Shown piece after piece: positions 1-6,078 of a stretch of 6,078 nt of DNA. Position 1 is the stretch's first letter. The number at the start of each line of letters is the position of its first letter. This DNA comes from a virus: IMG/VR virus record IMGVR_UViG_3300045988_001146, positions 1-6,078 of that record, one strand, 5' to 3'. The translations under genes were made by a program, and so were the position numbers. The notes beneath the pieces were generated by a model that had not been told where the DNA came from, searched no databases, and saw nothing but the letters and a program-made list of their open reading frames with translations.

Positions 1-99
1 AAACTGGGCAGCCATCTGATCCGAATAATCCTTAGAACTAAATTGTACTACTTCTTTCCAGCGCTGGAGATATTCAGTGGCACGAAGTGAAAGGGCAGA
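1..99. repeat. Terminal redundancy, copy 1. It is identical to 5980-6078 and marks a circular genome of 5,979 nt.
   Basis: Base-by-base comparison shows 1-99 and 5980-6078 are identical (aaactgggcagccatctgatccgaataatcc...gaagtgaaagggcaga). The repeat lies inside one continuous reading frame. Confidence 0.97.
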
Positions 100-2765: not shown

Positions 2766-3074
2766 CTATTTGCGTTTATAAATTACCTGATGACGATTAC
2801 GGCCACCAAACGAAATATGAATAAACGTAGGATATAATATCAGCTGGTCAAATACATGAATATTGTCCGAATAACTATGGATATGCTCAAGCAACCGACT
2901 ATAAGAAGTAGAACCATAAGGCTTAATATCAATAGCCTCTCCAAACAGATGCTGCGAATTAGGGACACCACCGGCAGCCTTATTTTCAGCAATAGAGCGT
3001 TTAGCACTTGTTATCGTAAAATGCAAGTTAAAAGACAACAGATGCTCAAGAAAATCCATAAGAGCACTATTCAT
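2766..3074 (-). CDS. Small zinc peptidase of the M15 family (Peptidase_M15_3/VanY-like fold); candidate peptidoglycan hydrolase (endolysin).
   Basis: 102-aa ORF containing ITSAKRS (conserved Arg26), NKAAGGVPNSQH, H42-x6-D49 (SQHLFGEAIDI) and a distal His in FIHISF (H86). This matches the S.R...N..GG...S.H..G.A.DI...H zinc-binding layout of M15 peptidases. No signal peptide or TM segment is present. Third codon positions are T-rich, as in the core genes. Its start overlaps the stop of the upstream small ORF (ATGA), and it ends 2 nt before the VP4 start. Confidence 0.78.
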   Translation of the reverse strand: MNSALMDFLEHLLSFNLHFTITSAKRSIAENKAAGGVPNSQHLFGEAIDIKPYGSTSYSRLLEHIHSYSDNIHVFDQLILYPTFIHISFGGRNRHQVIYKRK

Positions 3075-3154
3075 AATCCAATAGCATTAAGAATATAACC
3101 AAGAGCCGCCGAAACAGCGCCAATCACAATTTTCCAAATATTACTACTTTTCAT
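3071..3154 (-). CDS. 27-aa single-pass membrane peptide (MKSSNIWKIVIGAVSAALGYILNAIGL); candidate holin-like or lysis accessory protein.
   Basis: This is the downstream part of the 75-aa track ORF (3071..3298), starting from the internal ATG at 3154. It has a short polar N-terminus followed by a 22-residue hydrophobic helix. By hand count, T occupies 17/27 third codon positions (about 63%), matching bona fide genes. The upstream 48 codons of the same frame have only 13/48 T3 and 21/48 G3. The stop overlaps the peptidase start (ATGA at 3071-3074). The start lies 8 nt upstream of the stop codon of the 65-aa ORF (the two ORFs overlap by 11 nt). Confidence 0.4.
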   Translation of the reverse strand: MKSSNIWKIVIGAVSAALGYILNAIGL

Positions 3155-3341
3155 TACCGTTCTGATTTTTAAATTCAACAAAATCATCTTCCTCTTTAAT
3201 CGAGTCCACAACAACAATAAAACCCAATGGACAAAAACGTTCGCAATAGCGTCCAAGACCATCGAGAGAACTAACGACATAAGGCGAAAAAGCATCACGA
3301 CCAGTGTTTCTGTCTTTAACTGAAATAATAAATCTTTGCAT
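3144..3341 (-). CDS. Hypothetical 65-aa soluble protein with an acidic C-terminus; first gene after the promoter.
   Basis: The ORF is MQRFIISVKDRNTGRDAFSPYVVSSLDGLGRYCERFCPLGFIVVVDSIKEEDDFVEFKNQNGNEK. T3 is 36/65 (about 55%) by hand count, equal to VP1, which favours this frame over the overlapping 75-aa frame. It lies directly downstream of the predicted promoter and AT-rich leader. It has a faint resemblance to small non-structural (VP5-type) proteins of gokushovirus-like phages, which I cannot verify here. Confidence 0.55.
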   Translation of the reverse strand: MQRFIISVKDRNTGRDAFSPYVVSSLDGLGRYCERFCPLGFIVVVDSIKEEDDFVEFKNQNGNEK

Positions 3342-3390
3342 AACTGTAATAATTTAAATAATTAATAATAATTGTAACTTCTACACAGTG

Positions 3391-3421
3391 CAAAGATACG
3401 AACTATTTTCATAAATCCAAA
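3391..3421 (-). promoter_or_regulatory. Bacteroides-type sigma-A promoter: -33 TTTG (3421-3418), 19-nt spacer, -7 TATCTTTG (3398-3391).
   Basis: The minus strand reads TTTG-GATTTATGAAAATAGTTCG-TATCTTTG, matching the published Bacteroides consensus TTTG / TAnnTTTG. An A8 tract lies just upstream (3438-3431 on the minus strand). A leader of about 45 nt, AT-rich and without a Shine-Dalgarno sequence, runs to the ATG at 3341. This is the only sizeable non-coding region in the genome. Confidence 0.6.
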
Positions 3422-3572
3422 GAAAAACTATTTTTTTTAGATTATACCATAGAGTGTGAGTTGTGCGTTTATAGACAAGAAACGGGAGAATCCGAGAGGA
3501 TAACTCGAATTTGCTTCGCACACAACTAGGGGCTTCGCTTAATTAACAAGTGGATGTATACAAAGGTGTATA

Positions 3573-3727
3573 GGCACGGCAAGGCAGGGACTGTCTTGCC
3601 TTTGCGCACTCCGTGCTAAAATACCGGAGCGGGGCGCTCCTATAAAGAGGTCGCTCCGCTCCATTTTTCGATCAGGCCCTACGCGGGCGGCGGGTGTATA
3701 TCGCTCAAACGCCGCGATGGGCTCCTA
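3573..3727 (-). other. GC-rich hairpin cluster in the single intergenic region; candidate complementary-strand origin, terminator or regulatory structure.
   Basis: Hand count gives 95/155 G+C (61%) against roughly 40% elsewhere. Hairpin 1 is GGCAAGGC (3578-3585) / GTCTTGCC (3593-3600), with outer GCACGG (3574-3579) / CCGTGC (3611-3616) as an alternative. Hairpin 2 is GGAGCG (3626-3631) / CGCTCC (3635-3640); CGCTCC occurs again at 3652-3657 and 3657-3662. Hairpin 3 is GCCC..CGCGG (3676-3686) / CCGCG..GGGC (3711-3722) with a 2x2 internal loop. Confidence 0.5.
3616..3640 (-). terminator. Possible intrinsic terminator of the genome-length operon.
   Basis: The minus strand reads GGAGCG-CCC-CGCTCC followed by GGTATTTTAG, about 100 nt downstream of the VP2 stop. 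The stem is only 6 bp and the T tract is short and interrupted. On the plus strand, GGAGCGG (3626-3632) / CCGCTCC (3656-3662) followed by ATTTTT would act in the opposite direction. Confidence 0.35.
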
Positions 3728-3743
3728 GTCCTAAAGAATGTAT

Positions 3744-4859
3744 TTATTTACGGCCAACAGCATTACTAATTCCTTGGAATATACGGGTACCGTAATCAAT
3801 AGCATTACGCAATTCATAAGAATTGACATCCTTCTGCTTCTGTTTAGATGACCATTTATAATAATCACGCAAGGCCTTATCTTTAGAATACTCCATATTC
3901 TTAAGGACATTAATATTCTTCGAATCCCATAATGAACCTAAGCCACGAGCACGATTAGACTGAATATTAGCATAGATAAGAGAGTCAGCAGTCTGAGAAG
4001 CAATCCTATTATTAATACGAATGCCGTTCGTTTCGGCAGCTGTCTTAATAGCTAGAGCCATCTGATTCTTATATTGCGCCTCGGTCAAAGAACCTTGTGC
4101 ATACAGATTAGCAAGTGTCTGGCCTTTAATAAACAAATCAGCCTGTTGTTGCTCATCAAGATATTTATTAAGTACCTGTTGAGCCTCAGAATCAAGCAGA
4201 ATCTGCGCCTCTTGGGCAGAAGTCAAACGACCGGCAAACTCCATATTCTTAAGTTCCTGATACTCCTTGGACTGGTCCAATAAAGCGGAACGTCTACCAG
4301 TAGAAGCATTCCAATAACCTGACTGACCAACACCAATGTTACGATAATTGGTATCGCCCAAGATCTGTTGCATCTTATACGGAGTAAGAGCAGCGTTCTG
4401 TTCAGCATTAAGCATAGCAGCACGAGCCTGTGCCATAGAAGCAAGAGCAGTACCGACATCAGAGAAATCGGGACGGAAAGCCTGTAAACTAGGAGCGGAG
4501 GAGGCAGAAGCAGCAGCACCACCAGAAGCAGGAGATCTAGAACCAGCCATAGCAGCAGAACCTTGGACAAATGGATTAAGACCACGAGAAATCATTGCAT
4601 TGGGGGAATTATAAGAATTATTCATTCCCCACATCTTTTCCTGCCAGTCACGCTGAATCTGTGCCTGCTGAGCATTAAACGCATTATTCTCGCGGTTAAT
4701 ATCAATACTGGTCTGATTGGTCTTATTCTGCGAAGAAGCACCAATAGCATTACCGGCAAGTGAAGCACCGGCAGCAATAATACCTCCAAGAACAAGCGGA
4801 GCAATATGCTTTTCGGAGTGTCCCATTAAGGGACTTTCTCCAATATCATAGAACCTCAT
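3744..4859 (-). CDS. VP2: Minor capsid / DNA pilot protein VP2 (H-like).
   Basis: 371-aa ORF. It has an N-terminal Gly/Ala-rich hydrophobic segment (IAPLVLGGIIAAGASLAGNAIGA). This is followed by a Q/N/A-rich region and WQEKMWGMNNSYNSPNAMISRGLNPF, which fits the YNSP...GLNP signature I associate with VP2 of gokusho/alpavirus-like phages. The remainder is long, helical and Q/A/L-rich. The start overlaps the stop of the upstream gene (ATGA at 4856-4859). Confidence 0.8.
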   Translation of the reverse strand: MRFYDIGESPLMGHSEKHIAPLVLGGIIAAGASLAGNAIGASSQNKTNQTSIDINRENNAFNAQQAQIQRDWQEKMWGMNNSYNSPNAMISRGLNPFVQGSAAMAGSRSPASGGAAASASSAPSLQAFRPDFSDVGTALASMAQARAAMLNAEQNAALTPYKMQQILGDTNYRNIGVGQSGYWNASTGRRSALLDQSKEYQELKNMEFAGRLTSAQEAQILLDSEAQQVLNKYLDEQQQADLFIKGQTLANLYAQGSLTEAQYKNQMALAIKTAAETNGIRINNRIASQTADSLIYANIQSNRARGLGSLWDSKNINVLKNMEYSKDKALRDYYKWSSKQKQKDVNSYELRNAIDYGTRIFQGISNAVGRK

Positions 4860-5299
4860 TGAGCACCGGCGTCAGGGGCGGGCGACTCATCGGGCGCTGA
4901 CTGTTGCTCTGCCAACATTTCCTGTGCGTACTTGGTAATTTCAGACTTTTCACTAGCCAGCTGCTGCAAAACAGCCTGTCGTTCCGACATAGTCTGACAA
5001 TGACGGGAAATAACACAATTAAAACGTTGCTCATCAGTCATACCATCCATAACAGTAGACTGGGTAGGATGCATCCGGGCAAGAATATTCTGAACATTCA
5101 TGTCACCAAGAAGACGGCGATACTTCTCCTGATTAAGAAGAATCTGCGTCATATCGCATTGAATCAAATCACCGTCAAGAGACTCATCATACATAACAGT
5201 ATCGTATACAGACTGTTGATAGCAAGGATGTTCTTCAACCAACTCGGGAATAACCTCATTCTTAATATAATCGGGGTTCTTATAAGCAAAATTTCTCAT
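4856..5299 (-). CDS. Putative internal scaffolding protein (VP3-like); assignment by position and character only.
   Basis: 147-aa acidic ORF lying between VP1 and VP2. It starts 11 nt after the VP1 stop and is coupled to VP2 by an ATGA overlap. The C-terminal tail is Q/E/A/P-rich. I recognise no diagnostic motif. Confidence 0.45.
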   Translation of the reverse strand: MRNFAYKNPDYIKNEVIPELVEEHPCYQQSVYDTVMYDESLDGDLIQCDMTQILLNQEKYRRLLGDMNVQNILARMHPTQSTVMDGMTDEQRFNCVISRHCQTMSERQAVLQQLASEKSEITKYAQEMLAEQQSAPDESPAPDAGAQ

Positions 5300-5310
5300 A
5301 ACAAAAACAA

Positions 5311-6078
5311 TTAATAAGGTAAACCATTTCTATCCAAATTCTGAACAGCATATACTTGAAAATTAACATTACACAATAACTGATCAAATGCAACGGAACA
5401 ATTGGCAGCATCAATCTGGGGAACAAAAATAGAGTTCAGCTGTTGAGGACGAACTTTCATAGACTGATAAGACCAAGCACCGGCGGAAGTCAACACCTGC
5501 CAACCGTCAAGAGGAGCAGCCCAAGACTGATAGGCAGCACCAGCACGGAATCCGGCATGAACAGTATCAATATTAGATTTCCATTGCCAATAACGAAGGT
5601 TATAACCGAGAGAACCTGCAACGTTACGTCCGGGATTATTCTGAAGATTAAGAGCGGGAACAGCCTGCATGCCAAGTTGATCAAATGCAGGTTGCGGAAA
5701 ATCAGATACAGAAGTCACAGTCAGCTGGGGAGCCTGACCAGTCAATTCCCAATCCAACATAGGTACGGCATGATAGACACACATAATAACTTGATGTTCA
5801 GCACCACAATCATAAGTAAGAACATGACCAGAATTACTAGATACACCTTTGCCGGCAATAGAAGCCTGAGAAGAATCAGTATCAAGATTGGTATTAACCA
5901 CTTCGTTGATATTAATAACACTGGACCAACCTCCAATATAATGAGCATGATTACCCATATACTCGGGGGCTTTAATACCAAACTGGGCAGCCATCTGATC
6001 CGAATAATCCTTAGAACTAAATTGTACTACTTCTTTCCAGCGCTGGAGATATTCAGTGGCACGAAGTGAAAGGGCAGA
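5311..6078 (-). CDS. VP1: Major capsid protein VP1, C-terminal segment (unique part 5311-5979; 5980-6078 duplicates 1-99).
   Basis: The track ORF 5311..5994 starts at an internal Met. The frame stays open to the window edge and joins 1..1071 in frame. It contains FGIKAPEYMGNHAHYIGG, the conserved FG(V/I)...PE(Y)(L/I)GG block that follows LQRW.E, and ends ...NLDRNGLPY with a TAA stop at 5313-5311. Confidence 0.95.
   Translation of the reverse strand, partial: SALSLRATEYLQRWKEVVQFSSKDYSDQMAAQFGIKAPEYMGNHAHYIGGWSSVININEVVNTNLDTDSSQASIAGKGVSSNSGHVLTYDCGAEHQVIMCVYHAVPMLDWELTGQAPQLTVTSVSDFPQPAFDQLGMQAVPALNLQNNPGRNVAGSLGYNLRYWQWKSNIDTVHAGFRAGAAYQSWAAPLDGWQVLTSAGAWSYQSMKVRPQQLNSIFVPQIDAANCSVAFDQLLCNVNFQVYAVQNLDRNGLPY
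5901..5930 (+). other. phiX174-origin-like sequence on the strand antisense to the genes.
   Basis: Plus-strand 5906-5922, TTGATATTAATAACACT, is identical to 17 consecutive nt of the 30-nt phiX174 viral-strand origin as I recall it (CAACTTGATATTAATAACACTATAGACCAC). The flanks are partly similar (C..C.TTG upstream, GACCA.C downstream). Confidence 0.4.
5980..6078. repeat. Terminal redundancy, copy 2 (identical to 1-99).
   Basis: Exact 99/99 identity with the window start. Most likely the overlap left when a circular contig is written out as linear sequence. Confidence 0.97.

What the first reader, a model, noticed from the sequence alone, without database searches (positions are those of the whole stretch)
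2766..3154. Possible two-component lysis module (mini-TM peptide plus M15 zinc peptidase) in a microvirus
Characterised Microviridae lyse with a single-gene amurin (phiX174 E blocks MraY), and gokushovirus-like phages generally have no recognised lysis gene. This genome encodes a 102-aa protein with the M15 zinc-peptidase signature (R26, GG..S.H42-x6-D49, H86). That is a catalytic domain only, with no cell-wall-binding domain and no export signal. A 27-aa ORF that is essentially one transmembrane helix lies immediately upstream and is translationally coupled to it by an ATGA overlap. This arrangement resembles a miniature holin-endolysin pair, or a membrane tether for the peptidase. Both ORFs share the strong T3 codon bias of VP1 and VP4, so they look like resident genes rather than an assembly chimera or very recent capture. 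Alternatively, the peptidase could help penetrate peptidoglycan at entry.
Basis: partly seen in the sequence, partly recalled or inferred. Interest (0 to 1): 0.82.

Follow-up and report, generated by a model that had tools for sequence, protein, structure and literature searches.

The report
Tiny membrane peptide beside microvirus endolysin
A gut microvirus carries a cell-wall-cutting enzyme gene of a kind already reported in such viruses, and just upstream a strongly conserved 27-codon gene for a single membrane helix that nobody has characterised, which is most likely the membrane half of a minimal two-part lysis system.

Summary
Window 2766-3074(-) encodes a 102-aa Peptidase_M15_3 protein: it scores above Pfam's gathering threshold, H42/D49/H86, R26 and S40 are invariant, and the AF2 model has pLDDT 90. 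Window 3071-3154(-) is a 27-codon ORF that overlaps it by ATGA.

The peptidase is not new. M15_3 genes in microviruses were reported in 2012 and proposed as endolysins, and GenBank relatives are annotated 'peptidase'.

What is new is the evidence that the mini-ORF is a real gene.
- A single open 27-codon frame is unremarkable (about 20% by chance).
- Across 108 distinct sequences it never has a stop or an indel.
- pN/pS is 0.10 in its own frame and above 1 in the other two frames.
- Its amino acids are more conserved than the peptidase's.

In a sample chosen without regard to the peptide, all 41 microvirus loci with a roughly 100-aa peptidase have a 26-31-aa membrane-helix ORF just upstream. 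These fall into three sequence families. Microviruses with full-length (131-153 aa) M15 enzymes lack such an ORF.

Function is inferred, not shown. A holin-like partner is the best reading (about 0.45). Alternatives are an independent lysis peptide or a function unrelated to lysis. Public records list the ORF only as 'hypothetical protein'. I found no paper that describes it.

The parts
2766..3074 (-). 102-aa M15_3 (LAS-type zinc) peptidase, candidate endolysin. It is shorter at the N-terminus than the 131-153-aa homologues.
   Evidence: Pfam PF08291 at 39.6 bits against a cut-off of 23.2. PHROG 894 'endolysin', E 6.6e-16. H42, D49, H86, R26 and S40 invariant. pN/pS 0.27. AF2 pLDDT 90.4. Best PDB fold match is 1LBU, a Zn DD-peptidase (probability 1.0, TM 0.48). 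38 BFVD matches at E<=1e-3; of the 24 of these that carry a name, 23 are M15-type or generically named peptidases or other cell-wall hydrolases.
3071..3154 (-). 27-codon gene for a single-helix membrane peptide, MKSSNIWKIVIGAVSAALGYILNAIGL.
   Evidence: Intact in every relative examined. There are 108 distinct 27-codon nucleotide versions with no stop or indel. pN/pS is 0.10 in frame against 1.45 and 8.8 out of frame. Kyte-Doolittle 19-residue mean is 2.0. Small and polar residues K8, G12, S15, A16, G19, N23 and G26 lie on one helical face.
3071..3074 (-). ATGA overlap: the stop of the peptide gene shares bases with the start of the peptidase gene.
   Evidence: NTGA overlap in 122 of 123 distinct family-A regions (ATGA in 120, GTGA in 2).
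3144..3341 (-). ORF65, a conserved upstream gene of unknown function. Its last 11 nt overlap the start of the peptide gene.
   Evidence: Present in all 33 relatives. pN/pS 0.40. 421 homologues, none with a Pfam domain, nearly all on microvirus-sized (about 6 kb) contigs. No Pfam or PHROG hit. AF2 pLDDT 70 and no fold match. The same 11-nt overlap is seen in family B.
3144..3154 (-). 11-nt overlap between the ORF65 stop and the peptide-gene start (ATGAAAAGTAG).
   Evidence: The ORF65 stop codon begins 8 nt after the peptide ATG in 28 of 33 relatives (5 or 11 nt in the rest). The same arrangement occurs in family B loci L149-L151.

Best explanation
The locus is a compact, translationally coupled cassette on the minus strand: ORF65, then a 27-aa membrane peptide, then a 102-aa M15 zinc peptidase, followed two bases later by the replication gene VP4.

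The peptidase is the peptidoglycan-cleaving enzyme of the lysis system. It is a soluble catalytic domain with no recognisable export signal.

The 27-aa product is a separate, strongly constrained single-pass membrane peptide. Proposed mechanism:
- It inserts into the cytoplasmic membrane with its lysine-bearing N-terminus inside.
- It self-associates through the small/polar face of its helix (G12, S15, A16, G19, N23, G26).
- At a critical level it damages or depolarises the membrane, which lets the peptidase reach the cell wall and sets the time of lysis. In short, it works like a minimal holin.

Shown here: both genes are real, under purifying selection and co-resident, and they are coupled by a stop-start overlap in family A, with a short spacer instead in families B and C. 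The enzyme family is established, and the peptide has helix and membrane-like properties.

Inferred: membrane insertion, oligomerisation, membrane permeabilisation, release of the enzyme, and any role in lysis at all.
For: 1. Enzyme. Pfam M15_3 above threshold and PHROG 'endolysin'. Invariant H-x6-D...H triad plus R26 and S40. Confident model with M15 fold matches. pN/pS 0.27.

2. Homologues in tailed phages are endolysins in canonical cassettes, with the holin gene directly upstream. Burkholderia phage KS9 has holin gp22, endolysin gp23, then Rz/Rz1, and gp22 is Phage_holin_3_2. In the 38-kb contig L257, an 84-aa single-TMD ORF overlaps the M15 gene by ATGA and spanin-like ORFs lie downstream.

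3. The peptide is a real gene. pN/pS is 0.10-0.11 in frame and above 1 out of frame. Invariant residues use two to five synonymous codons, and Ser15 uses both TCN and AGT codons. Family B gives 0.046.

4. Association. In a sample drawn through the peptidase only, 40 of 41 microvirus loci with a 98-104-aa enzyme have a complete 26-31-aa hydrophobic ORF ending between 4 nt inside and 24 nt before the peptidase start. The 41st is cut by the locus end. This holds across genomes whose VP4 proteins are only 26-28% identical.

5. Peptide properties. Kyte-Doolittle 19-residue mean about 2.0, net charge +1 to +3 located at the N-terminus, 8-9 of 19 core residues are G/A/S/T, and one helical face is small/polar.

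6. Faint holin similarity that depends on residue order. Family C matches phrog_443 'holin' at E 0.011 and Pfam Phage_holin_3_3 at E 0.033. Family B matches phrog_443 at E 0.13. Ten shuffled controls gave no holin hit.
Against: - No experiment exists.
- No family match reaches a curated threshold. Family A, the one in the window, hits nothing.
- A profile of all the peptides finds nothing among ORFs next to tailed-phage M15 endolysins.
- The peptide lacks the charged hydrophilic C-terminal tail typical of holins, and it is far shorter than any holin I know of (own knowledge).
- How a 27-residue single helix could make holes large enough for an 11.5-kDa enzyme is unexplained.
- The association with the 102-aa enzyme may reflect one ancestral event inherited by descent, with the same gene order throughout. 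Its many occurrences are therefore not independent evidence of functional linkage.
- One metagenomic genome (L106) keeps the peptide gene intact but has no peptidase gene.
- Sequence conservation higher than the enzyme's (pN 0.044 against 0.118) fits a specific protein target at least as well as generic pore formation.
Confidence: 0.45

Rival explanations
1. The peptide is itself the lysis effector, of the single-gene-lysis ('protein antibiotic') type. As a single transmembrane helix it binds and blocks a conserved membrane enzyme of cell-wall synthesis, as phiX174 E does with MraY and levivirus LysM does with MurJ. The peptidase is an accessory that speeds or completes wall breakdown.
For: - Sequence constraint is extreme and position-specific. 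W7, K8, I11, G12, A13, S15, A16, A17, G19, Y20, L22, N23 and G26 are invariant in 108 sequences, although residues 12-23 were partly fixed by the search pattern.
- pN is lower than for the enzyme.
- The peptide gene is kept intact in a genome without the peptidase (L106).
- Microviruses are the classic users of this strategy, and a 37-aa example (LysM) exists (own knowledge).
Against: - No similarity to E or any other known lysis protein.
- No proline in the helix, whereas E requires one (own knowledge).
- The gene is not overprinted inside another gene.
- The peptidase is retained under purifying selection in all but one of about 170 genomes. That would be unnecessary if the peptide sufficed.
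- L106 is a single incomplete metagenomic contig.
Confidence: 0.2
2. The peptide is a membrane protein with a role unrelated to lysis, for example superinfection exclusion, membrane anchoring of replication or assembly, or modulation of a host transporter. It sits next to the peptidase only because microvirus genomes are compact and gene order is inherited.
For: - All carriers share one gene order (VP2, conserved non-coding stretch, ORF65, peptide, peptidase, VP4). Co-occurrence can therefore be explained by descent.
- phiX174 also has a small membrane protein (K) that is not a lysis protein (own knowledge).
- L106 keeps the peptide without the enzyme.
- No holin family is matched at threshold.
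Against: - Stop-start overlap with the peptidase in 122 of 123 family-A regions.
- The peptide ORF occurs only in the lineage with the truncated 98-104-aa enzyme and is absent from microviruses with full-length M15 enzymes, including Bacteroides phage phiHBP1, whose VP4 is as distant from the window's as family B's is.
- Small membrane proteins directly upstream of endolysin genes are holins in the tailed-phage relatives.
Confidence: 0.17
3. The peptidase does not act as a classical endolysin from the periplasmic side. Either it works in the cytoplasm on peptidoglycan precursors (an enzymatic block of wall synthesis, like VanX/VanY-type M15 enzymes), with the peptide holding it at the membrane. 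Or it is a virion or entry enzyme that opens the wall for DNA delivery.
For: - The enzyme has no recognisable export signal and lacks the N-terminal 30-45 residues of its full-length relatives.
- The M15 clan includes cytoplasmic dipeptidases (own knowledge).
- M15 domains also occur in tail-associated lysins, for example Gp5-like proteins among the BFVD matches.
Against: - The nearest families are PF08291 and PHROG 894 'endolysin' rather than VanX or VanY (PF13539 only 16.3 bits, below its cut-off of 25).
- The closest tailed-phage homologues lie in lysis cassettes.
- No structural role for a 102-aa enzyme is known in T=1 microvirus capsids (own knowledge).
- There is no evidence of peptide-enzyme binding.
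Confidence: 0.1
4. Peptide and peptidase are made as one polypeptide, by frameshifting or stop-codon read-through. That would give a signal-anchored (SAR-like) endolysin whose weakly hydrophobic G/A/S-rich N-terminal helix carries it across the membrane.
For: - The helix composition resembles signal-anchor-release domains: 8-9 of 19 residues are G/A/S/T, and the summed insertion energy is marginal at about +1.4 to +2.4 kcal/mol (scale values recalled from Hessa 2005).
- In most family-B genomes the two ORFs are in the same frame, separated by one stop and one sense codon.
Against: - The frame relation is not conserved. Family A has a 4-nt NTGA overlap (shift of -1), family B has a stop plus 3 to 57 nt, sometimes with several in-frame stops, and family C has a 2-nt gap.
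- No slippery heptamer precedes the overlap.
- In the window, the peptidase frame has a TAA 12 nt upstream of its ATG.
Confidence: 0.04
5. The 27-codon ORF is not a gene. It is a chance open frame made hydrophobic by the genome's T-rich codon bias, or a stretch conserved as DNA or RNA rather than as protein.
For: - A 27-codon open frame has about a 20% chance in this composition.
- Many spurious leucine-rich ORFs occur in the +1 frame of real genes in this genome.
- Most GenBank records do not annotate it.
Against: - The substitution pattern is that of a protein. pS is 0.42 and pN 0.044 in frame, and the ratio exceeds 1 in both other frames.
- Length is invariant in 108 distinct versions.
- Both other frames contain stops here.
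- A second and a third family show the same architecture with different sequences.
Confidence: 0.02

Closest known systems
M15_3 peptidases of Microviridae (Roux et al. 2012, PMC3394797; Kirchberger et al. 2022, PMC9239249)
   Same: Same enzyme family (PF08291), same kind of virus and the same proposed endolysin role. GenBank relatives of this genome (Dulem viruses, MG945488) already carry 'peptidase' annotations.
   Different: Those papers describe the enzyme alone. Roux et al. mention adjacent 'unknown' ORFs in 5 of 11 genomes, one of them 153 codons long on the opposite strand, but no small membrane partner. The word 'holin' does not occur in the 2022 paper. The enzyme here is the truncated 102-aa form, not the 131-153-aa form.
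Holin-endolysin(-spanin) cassettes of tailed phages, e.g. Burkholderia phage KS9 gp22-gp23-Rz/Rz1
   Same: The endolysin is a homologue (39% identity over residues 21-98). A small membrane protein gene lies immediately upstream, and there are tight or overlapping gene junctions.
   Different: KS9 holin is 112 aa and belongs to Phage_holin_3_2. The peptide here is 27 aa, has one helix and no charged C-terminal tail, matches no holin family at threshold, and no spanin candidates were seen. The virus has an ssDNA genome of 5,979 nt.
phiX174 E and other single-gene lysis proteins (levivirus LysM, MS2 L)
   Same: Small single-helix membrane proteins of very small phages. E also lies in the +1 frame of a T3-rich gene region, which may be how such helices arise (own knowledge, together with the +1-frame effect seen).
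   Different: No sequence similarity. The peptide gene is not embedded in another gene, has no proline in its helix, and is accompanied by a muralytic enzyme, which single-gene lysis systems lack.
Pinholin / SAR-endolysin systems (phage 21 S21-R21, P1 Lyz) and small pore-forming toxins such as TisB (29 aa)
   Same: A weakly hydrophobic helix rich in small residues with a small/polar stripe, suited to helix packing or to lining a narrow channel. The size is comparable to type I toxins (comparison from own knowledge).
   Different: Pinholes only depolarise the membrane and need an endolysin that is exported on its own. The peptidase here has no recognisable signal, and the helix is a separate product.

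Membership tests
Peptidase M15 / LAS zinc peptidases (Pfam PF08291 Peptidase_M15_3) | Profile match above the curated threshold | tested here: met
   39.6 bits against a gathering score of 23.2, E 6.5e-10, profile positions 29-107 of 108. Precomputed PF08291 is listed for all homologues shown.
Peptidase M15 / LAS zinc peptidases (Pfam PF08291 Peptidase_M15_3) | Zinc-ligand signature H-x6-D ... H, conserved among homologues | tested here: met
   H42, D49 and H86, together with R26 and S40, are invariant in 10 homologues at 39-61% identity and in 52 at 60-94%. The alignment to 1LBU covers the S-x-H...D stretch.
Peptidase M15 / LAS zinc peptidases (Pfam PF08291 Peptidase_M15_3) | M15 fold | tested here: met
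   AF2 pLDDT 90.4. Top PDB match is 1LBU, a Zn DD-peptidase (probability 1.0, E 2e-3, TM 0.48, 77 columns); VanY and LdcB match weakly. 38 BFVD matches at E<=1e-3; of the 24 of these that carry a name, 23 are M15-type or generically named peptidases or other cell-wall hydrolases. The PDB match is modest.
Peptidase M15 / LAS zinc peptidases (Pfam PF08291 Peptidase_M15_3) | Ligand geometry around zinc, and hydrolytic activity on peptidoglycan peptides | not testable with these tools
Phage endolysin (functional class) | Phage-encoded muralytic enzyme homologous to enzymes located in lysis cassettes | tested here: met
   PHROG 894 'endolysin'. Homologues KS9 gp23 and Yut4 'endolysin' lie beside holin genes.
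Phage endolysin (functional class) | Required for, and acting at, host lysis | not testable with these tools
   No isolate of this clade and no expression data. One metagenomic relative lacks the gene (L106).
Holin | Small phage membrane protein with at least one transmembrane helix | tested here: met
   19-residue Kyte-Doolittle mean 2.0. The summed Hessa-scale value is about +1.6 kcal/mol, so insertion is marginal. No dedicated TM predictor was available.
Holin | Gene adjacent to, or overlapping, the endolysin gene | tested here: met
   NTGA overlap in 122 of 123 family-A regions. In family B the gap is 0-9 nt in 45 of 48 and larger in the rest, up to 57 nt. In family C the gap is 2 nt.
Holin | Hydrophilic, charged C-terminal domain after the last helix | tested here: not met
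   All three peptide families end within or right after the hydrophobic stretch (...NAIGL...AQIFS...LSNLA).
Holin | Membership of a described holin sequence family | tested here: not met
   Family A has no hit in Pfam, PHROGs or NCBIfam. Families B and C give only sub-threshold hits: phrog_443 at E 0.13 and 0.011, and Phage_holin_3_3 at 14.8 bits against a cut-off of 28.4. Shuffled controls gave no holin hits, so this is a hint only.
Holin | Forms membrane lesions at a set time and releases or activates the endolysin | not testable with these tools
   Needs expression and physiology experiments.
Single-gene lysis protein of the phiX174 E type | Overprinted within another gene; E-like sequence with an essential proline in the helix; no accompanying muralytic enzyme | tested here: not met
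   Only 11-nt and 4-nt terminal overlaps. No proline in the helix. No similarity to other phage proteins outside this microvirus clade. An M15 enzyme is encoded next to it.
SAR (signal-anchor-release) endolysin | Weakly hydrophobic N-terminal helix that is part of the enzyme polypeptide | tested here: not met
   The two ORFs are separate in all genomes. The frame relation differs between families A, B and C, and several in-frame stops occur in some family-B genomes.

The most novel reading that the evidence does not exclude
The 27-31-aa peptides are a new class of minimal holin-like lysis peptides, the smallest known membrane partner of an endolysin. Together with a 102-aa catalytic-only M15 enzyme they form about 390 nt of DNA that is sufficient for timed lysis.

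The peptide gene may have been born by overprinting. The ancestral full-length enzyme had 30-45 extra N-terminal codons, about the size of the present peptide gene. In this T3-biased genome the +1 frame of any coding stretch is automatically hydrophobic and free of stops. This is the same route thought to have produced phiX174 E.
Probability: 0.3. Interest if true: 0.8.

Novelty: new variant of a known kind. Interest (0 to 1): 0.6.

Why it matters
Microviruses are among the most abundant phages of the mammalian gut, and how most of them lyse their hosts is not known. Many carry an M15 peptidase with no export signal, and the papers I could search name no partner that would let it reach the cell wall.

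A conserved 27-31-residue membrane peptide encoded directly upstream is a concrete, testable candidate for that partner. If confirmed, four things would follow.
- It would show that very small ssDNA phages can run a two-component (membrane protein plus enzyme) lysis system as well as the classic single-gene route.
- It would define the lower size limit of a holin-like protein.
- It would give a very small synthetic lysis module.
- It would show that gene callers and GenBank records routinely miss a conserved microvirus gene, or absorb it into a mis-extended peptidase CDS.

If the peptide instead blocks a cell-wall synthesis enzyme, it would point to a drug-like target in gut Bacteroidota or other gut bacteria.

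Tried and rejected
1. The 75-aa GTG-started extension of the peptide ORF (3071..3298), which would give a two-helix protein. Rejected for four reasons:
- It lies in the +1 frame of ORF65, where the T3 bias makes any sequence hydrophobic and stop-free.
- pN/pS there is 0.82-0.90, against 0.40 for ORF65.
- One relative (L015) has a stop 10 codons upstream of the peptide ATG.
- Family-B loci L149 and L151 have no extension.

2. Fusion of peptide and enzyme by frameshift or read-through. Rejected because the frame relation is inconsistent.

3. Peptide as a truncated copy of a holin found next to tailed-phage M15 endolysins. An HMM of 62 peptides against 2,566 ORFs from 41 such loci gave nothing better than E 1.4. 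KS9 and Yut4 holins belong to other families than the faint hits.

4. Host identification.
- A degenerate-pattern scan of 185,579 species genomes gave two chance hits in unrelated long proteins.
- The 12-17-kb contigs carrying the genes are concatemers of related microviruses.
- Contig L343 (27 kb) joins a truncated VP1 to a bacterial ABC-permease gene. Contig L359 (88 kb) has no intact VP1. Both look chimeric or degraded, and the held stretches are too short to decide.
- Similarity to Bacteroides fragilis phage phiHBP1 is low (VP4 28%, VP1 C-terminus 35%) and does not fix the host.

5. ORF65 function. No Pfam or PHROG hit, AF2 pLDDT 70, and no PDB fold match better than E 0.86.

It was redone with database homologues.

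7. Checking the zinc-site geometry in the model was not possible, because coordinates are not exposed.

8. The Rfam scan of the window gave no hit. The sigma-70 promoter scan was at chance level (2 found, about 3.3 expected). The terminator scan found 3 sites against about 1.0 expected, but the two inside the peptide gene are weak 5-pair stems that I disregarded.
Full report
**What is in the window.** The window is a complete circular microvirus genome. Bases 1-99 repeat at 5980-6078, so the true length is 5,979 nt. All genes are on the minus strand:
- VP1 major capsid protein, which runs across the junction.
- A 147-aa ORF at 4856-5299.
- VP2 pilot protein at 3744-4859.
- An ORF-less stretch of about 400 nt.
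- ORF65 at 3144-3341.
- The 27-codon ORF at 3071-3154.
- The 102-aa peptidase at 2766-3074.
- VP4 replication initiator at 1084-2763.

G+C is 41%. T at the third codon position is 47-63% in every gene.

**The peptidase.** The 102-aa protein matches Pfam Peptidase_M15_3 above the curated threshold (39.6 against 23.2 bits) and PHROG 894 'endolysin' at E 6.6e-16. The only PDB sequence match is the Streptomyces albus zinc DD-peptidase 1LBU, across the S-x-H...D stretch.

pN/pS is 0.27.

An AlphaFold2 model built on 52 sequences has mean pLDDT 90.4. Its best PDB match is again 1LBU (probability 1.0, TM 0.48), followed weakly by VanY and LdcB. In the viral structure library it has 38 matches at E<=1e-3. 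Of the 24 of these that carry a name, 23 are M15-type or generically named peptidases or other cell-wall hydrolases from microviruses and tailed phages. I could not inspect the zinc-site geometry because coordinates are not exposed.

Compared with the 131-153-aa M15 enzymes of other microviruses, this protein lacks the first 30-45 residues.

**The peptidase is not new.**
- Roux et al. 2012 reported M15_3 genes in 11 gokusho- and alpavirus-like genomes, argued for horizontal acquisition and proposed an endolysin role.
- Kirchberger et al. 2022 list peptidases as lysis-associated accessory genes of microviruses.
- A 2024 study of marine microviruses says the same.
- GenBank relatives of this genome (Dulem viruses; MG945488 at 86% nucleotide identity) are annotated 'peptidase'.
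- The family is very large: 7,953 database proteins at E<=1e-5, mostly on contigs of about 6 kb.

**The 27-codon ORF is a real gene.** A stop-free 27-codon frame has about a 20% chance in this base composition. Also, in a genome with T-rich third positions, the +1 frame of any gene has T at codon position 2. That makes it hydrophobic and free of stops, and the window is full of such spurious leucine-rich ORFs.

The comparative evidence settles the matter.
- In 33 relatives retrieved through the peptidase alone (71-97% peptidase identity), the ORF is always present, always 27 codons, and always ends in NTGA over the peptidase start.
- Nucleotide differences are overwhelmingly synonymous. Pooled Nei-Gojobori values are pS 0.39, pN 0.044 and ratio 0.11 in its own frame, against ratios of 1.4 and 22 in the other two frames.
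- A degenerate-pattern scan of IMG/VR for the core motif found 116 stretches, nearly all on microvirus-sized (about 6 kb) contigs.
- Among 108 distinct 27-codon versions the ratio is 0.10. Invariant residues use two to five different codons, and Ser15 is encoded by both TCN and AGT.
- Both other frames contain stops in this interval.

The 75-aa GTG-started extension that the ORF listing reports is not supported. It is the +1 frame of ORF65, its pN/pS is 0.82-0.90, and it is interrupted or absent in some relatives.

**Distribution.** I drew a sample through the peptidase only, with a profile of ten diverse enzymes against IMG/VR.
- All 41 microvirus loci with a 98-104-aa enzyme have a 26-31-aa hydrophobic ORF just upstream. 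Forty are complete and one is cut by the locus end.
- The 39 loci with longer M15 homologues, mostly from tailed-phage-sized contigs, have nothing comparable. The exception is an 84-aa single-helix ORF overlapping the enzyme gene in L257, in what looks like a canonical cassette with spanins.

The peptides fall into three families:
- Family A (the window's): MKSNNIWKIVIGAVSAALGYILNAIGL.
- Family B: MKSETKSKIWSAIIAAAVSLLTSIAQIFS. There are 48 distinct regions, pN/pS is 0.046, and all sit next to a peptidase.
- Family C: MSTENNKKTNWITAVISAIVAALTSLLSNLA.

They align without internal gaps from the tryptophan onward and share one plan: a short lysine-bearing N-terminus, a Trp, then about 20 small or hydrophobic residues with a polar N, Q or S four to five residues from the end.

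Genomes of families A and B are very distant (VP4 26-28% and VP2 31% identity), while their peptidases are 47-50% identical. Microviruses with full-length M15 enzymes have no such ORF. These include the isolated Bacteroides fragilis phage phiHBP1, whose VP4 is equally distant from the window's.

The start of the peptide gene overlaps the stop of ORF65 by 11 nt in both families A and B. The three-gene coupling is therefore old.

**Properties of the peptide.**
- Net charge is +2, from K2 and K8.
- The 19-residue hydrophobic core I9-L27 has a Kyte-Doolittle mean of 2.0 and a marginal summed insertion energy of about +1.6 kcal/mol (scale values recalled from Hessa et al. 2005).
- 8 of 19 core residues are G, A, S or T.
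- On a helical wheel, K8, G12, S15, A16, G19, N23 and G26 fall within a 100-degree arc, with G12, G19 and G26 at heptad spacing. The rest of the surface is aliphatic.
- The corresponding positions are small in families B and C.

This is the pattern of a helix that packs against other helices or lines a narrow channel. That reading is an inference from sequence.

**What it most likely does.** Three observations point to a lysis partner.
1. Tailed-phage homologues of the enzyme are endolysins with the holin gene directly upstream. In KS9 the order is holin gp22 (Phage_holin_3_2), endolysin gp23, then Rz/Rz1. L257 shows the same layout.
2. The enzyme has no recognisable export signal, so something must let it through the membrane.
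3. Families B and C give faint sub-threshold matches to holin profiles: phrog_443 at E 0.011 and 0.13, and Pfam Phage_holin_3_3 at 14.8 bits against a cut-off of 28.4. Ten order-shuffled controls gave no holin match.

Several observations count against it.
- Family A matches nothing.
- A profile of all the peptides finds nothing among ORFs next to tailed-phage M15 endolysins.
- The peptide has no charged C-terminal tail.
- It is hard to see how 27 residues could make holes large enough for a folded enzyme.
- The many co-occurrences probably trace back to a single ancestor, so they are not independent evidence.
- The peptide is more conserved than the enzyme (pN 0.044 against 0.118).
- One incomplete metagenomic genome, L106, keeps the peptide gene intact but has VP4 starting 56 nt after it and no peptidase.

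The last two points fit a peptide that acts on its own against a specific host membrane protein, in the manner of phiX174 E or levivirus LysM.

My estimates are: holin-like partner about 0.45; independent lysis peptide about 0.2; function unrelated to lysis about 0.17; non-classical role of the enzyme about 0.1; fusion protein about 0.04; not a gene about 0.02.

**Is it known?** Automated pipelines have sometimes called these ORFs. Exact 27-, 29- and 37-aa products exist in IMG, MGnify and NCBI third-party annotations, all as 'hypothetical protein', with one automatic 'HdeD/DUF308' label. Most GenBank records omit the ORF. In Dulem viruses 226, 238 and 243 the peptidase CDS is instead extended 21 codons upstream in its own frame, across the peptide gene. 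Full-text searches found no paper that mentions a membrane partner or holin for microvirus peptidases. The library does not cover subscription journals.

**Verdict.** The enzyme half of the finding is already known. The peptide half is a well-supported, uncharacterised, very small conserved gene whose position and properties make it a testable candidate for the missing membrane component of microvirus lysis. I rate it a new variant of a known kind, with interest 0.6.

Noticed in passing
window 3352-3731: The ORF-less stretch between VP2 and ORF65 is the most conserved DNA in the genome among 30 relatives. Per-column majority is 0.67-0.98 in 20-nt bins (17 of 19 bins at 0.82 or above), against 0.44-0.59 in the adjacent VP2 3' end. 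As single-stranded DNA of the coding (packaged) strand it folds far better than shuffles (-59.1 kcal/mol, z = -4.1), with G+C-rich hairpins in its first 190 nt. There is no Rfam match. It is a candidate origin, priming site or promoter region.
   Followed up: partly
window 1-99 and 5980-6078: A 99-nt direct terminal repeat. The window is a circular genome of 5,979 nt, and VP1 reads through the junction.
   Followed up: yes
L106 (IMGVR_UViG_3300045988_000047), about 2915-3260 in the orientation used: A relative with ORF68 and an intact peptide gene (MKRNNIWKIVIGAVSAALGYILNAIGV, TAA stop) but no peptidase gene. VP4 starts 56 nt downstream. The contig is incomplete at 5,400 nt, and this is a single case.
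   Followed up: partly
L035, L036, L037 (Dulem viruses 226, 238, 243), locus 1438-1812: The deposited peptidase CDS is 124 aa because it starts 21 codons upstream in the peptidase frame, running across the unannotated peptide gene. The extension (e.g. MENHHWCCLCCPRLCLKFSWT) is not conserved and is closed by a stop in the window's clade, so it is probably a mis-called start.
   Followed up: yes
window minus strand, e.g. 111-254, 4223-4585, 3071-3298: Long leucine-rich 'transmembrane-looking' ORFs in the +1 frame of real genes are a by-product of the T-rich third codon position (T at position 2 of the shifted frame, hence no stops). Any hydrophobic small ORF in such genomes needs comparative support before it is believed.
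   Followed up: yes
L159, L171, L202 (family B), between the peptide stop and the peptidase start: The spacer is expanded from 3 nt to 18-24 nt by short repeats of the type CGTAA/TCGTAA (e.g. TAATTGTAATCGTAATCGTAAGCT), which add in-frame stops. L174 and L178 have 36-57-nt spacers of other sequence. Overlap-type coupling is therefore not obligatory in family B.
   Followed up: partly
L343 (27-kb contig) and L359 (88-kb contig): Family-B microvirus sequence lies at the end of long metagenomic contigs. In L343, VP1 is cut at residue 480 and abuts a bacterial sugar-ABC-permease gene on the other strand. In L359 the VP1 region has no long ORF. These could be degraded prophages or assembly chimeras. 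A 367-kb contig carrying the exact family-B peptide is also on record but could not be fetched.
   Followed up: partly
window 3144-3341; L033 2876-3040 (phiHBP1); L149 945-1118: ORF65 has counterparts in the same position upstream of the peptidase in family-B genomes (57 aa) and in Bacteroides phage phiHBP1 (54 aa). They share a pattern of beta-strand-like motifs (FIISVK / GFIVVVDS against YYFAVL / GYIIEILDS). No known family or fold matched, so its function is unknown.
   Followed up: partly
L155-L158 (JGI contigs of 14-17.6 kb): Contigs that hold two or three non-identical microvirus genomes head to tail. They are concatemeric assemblies of co-occurring relatives, not prophages.
   Followed up: yes
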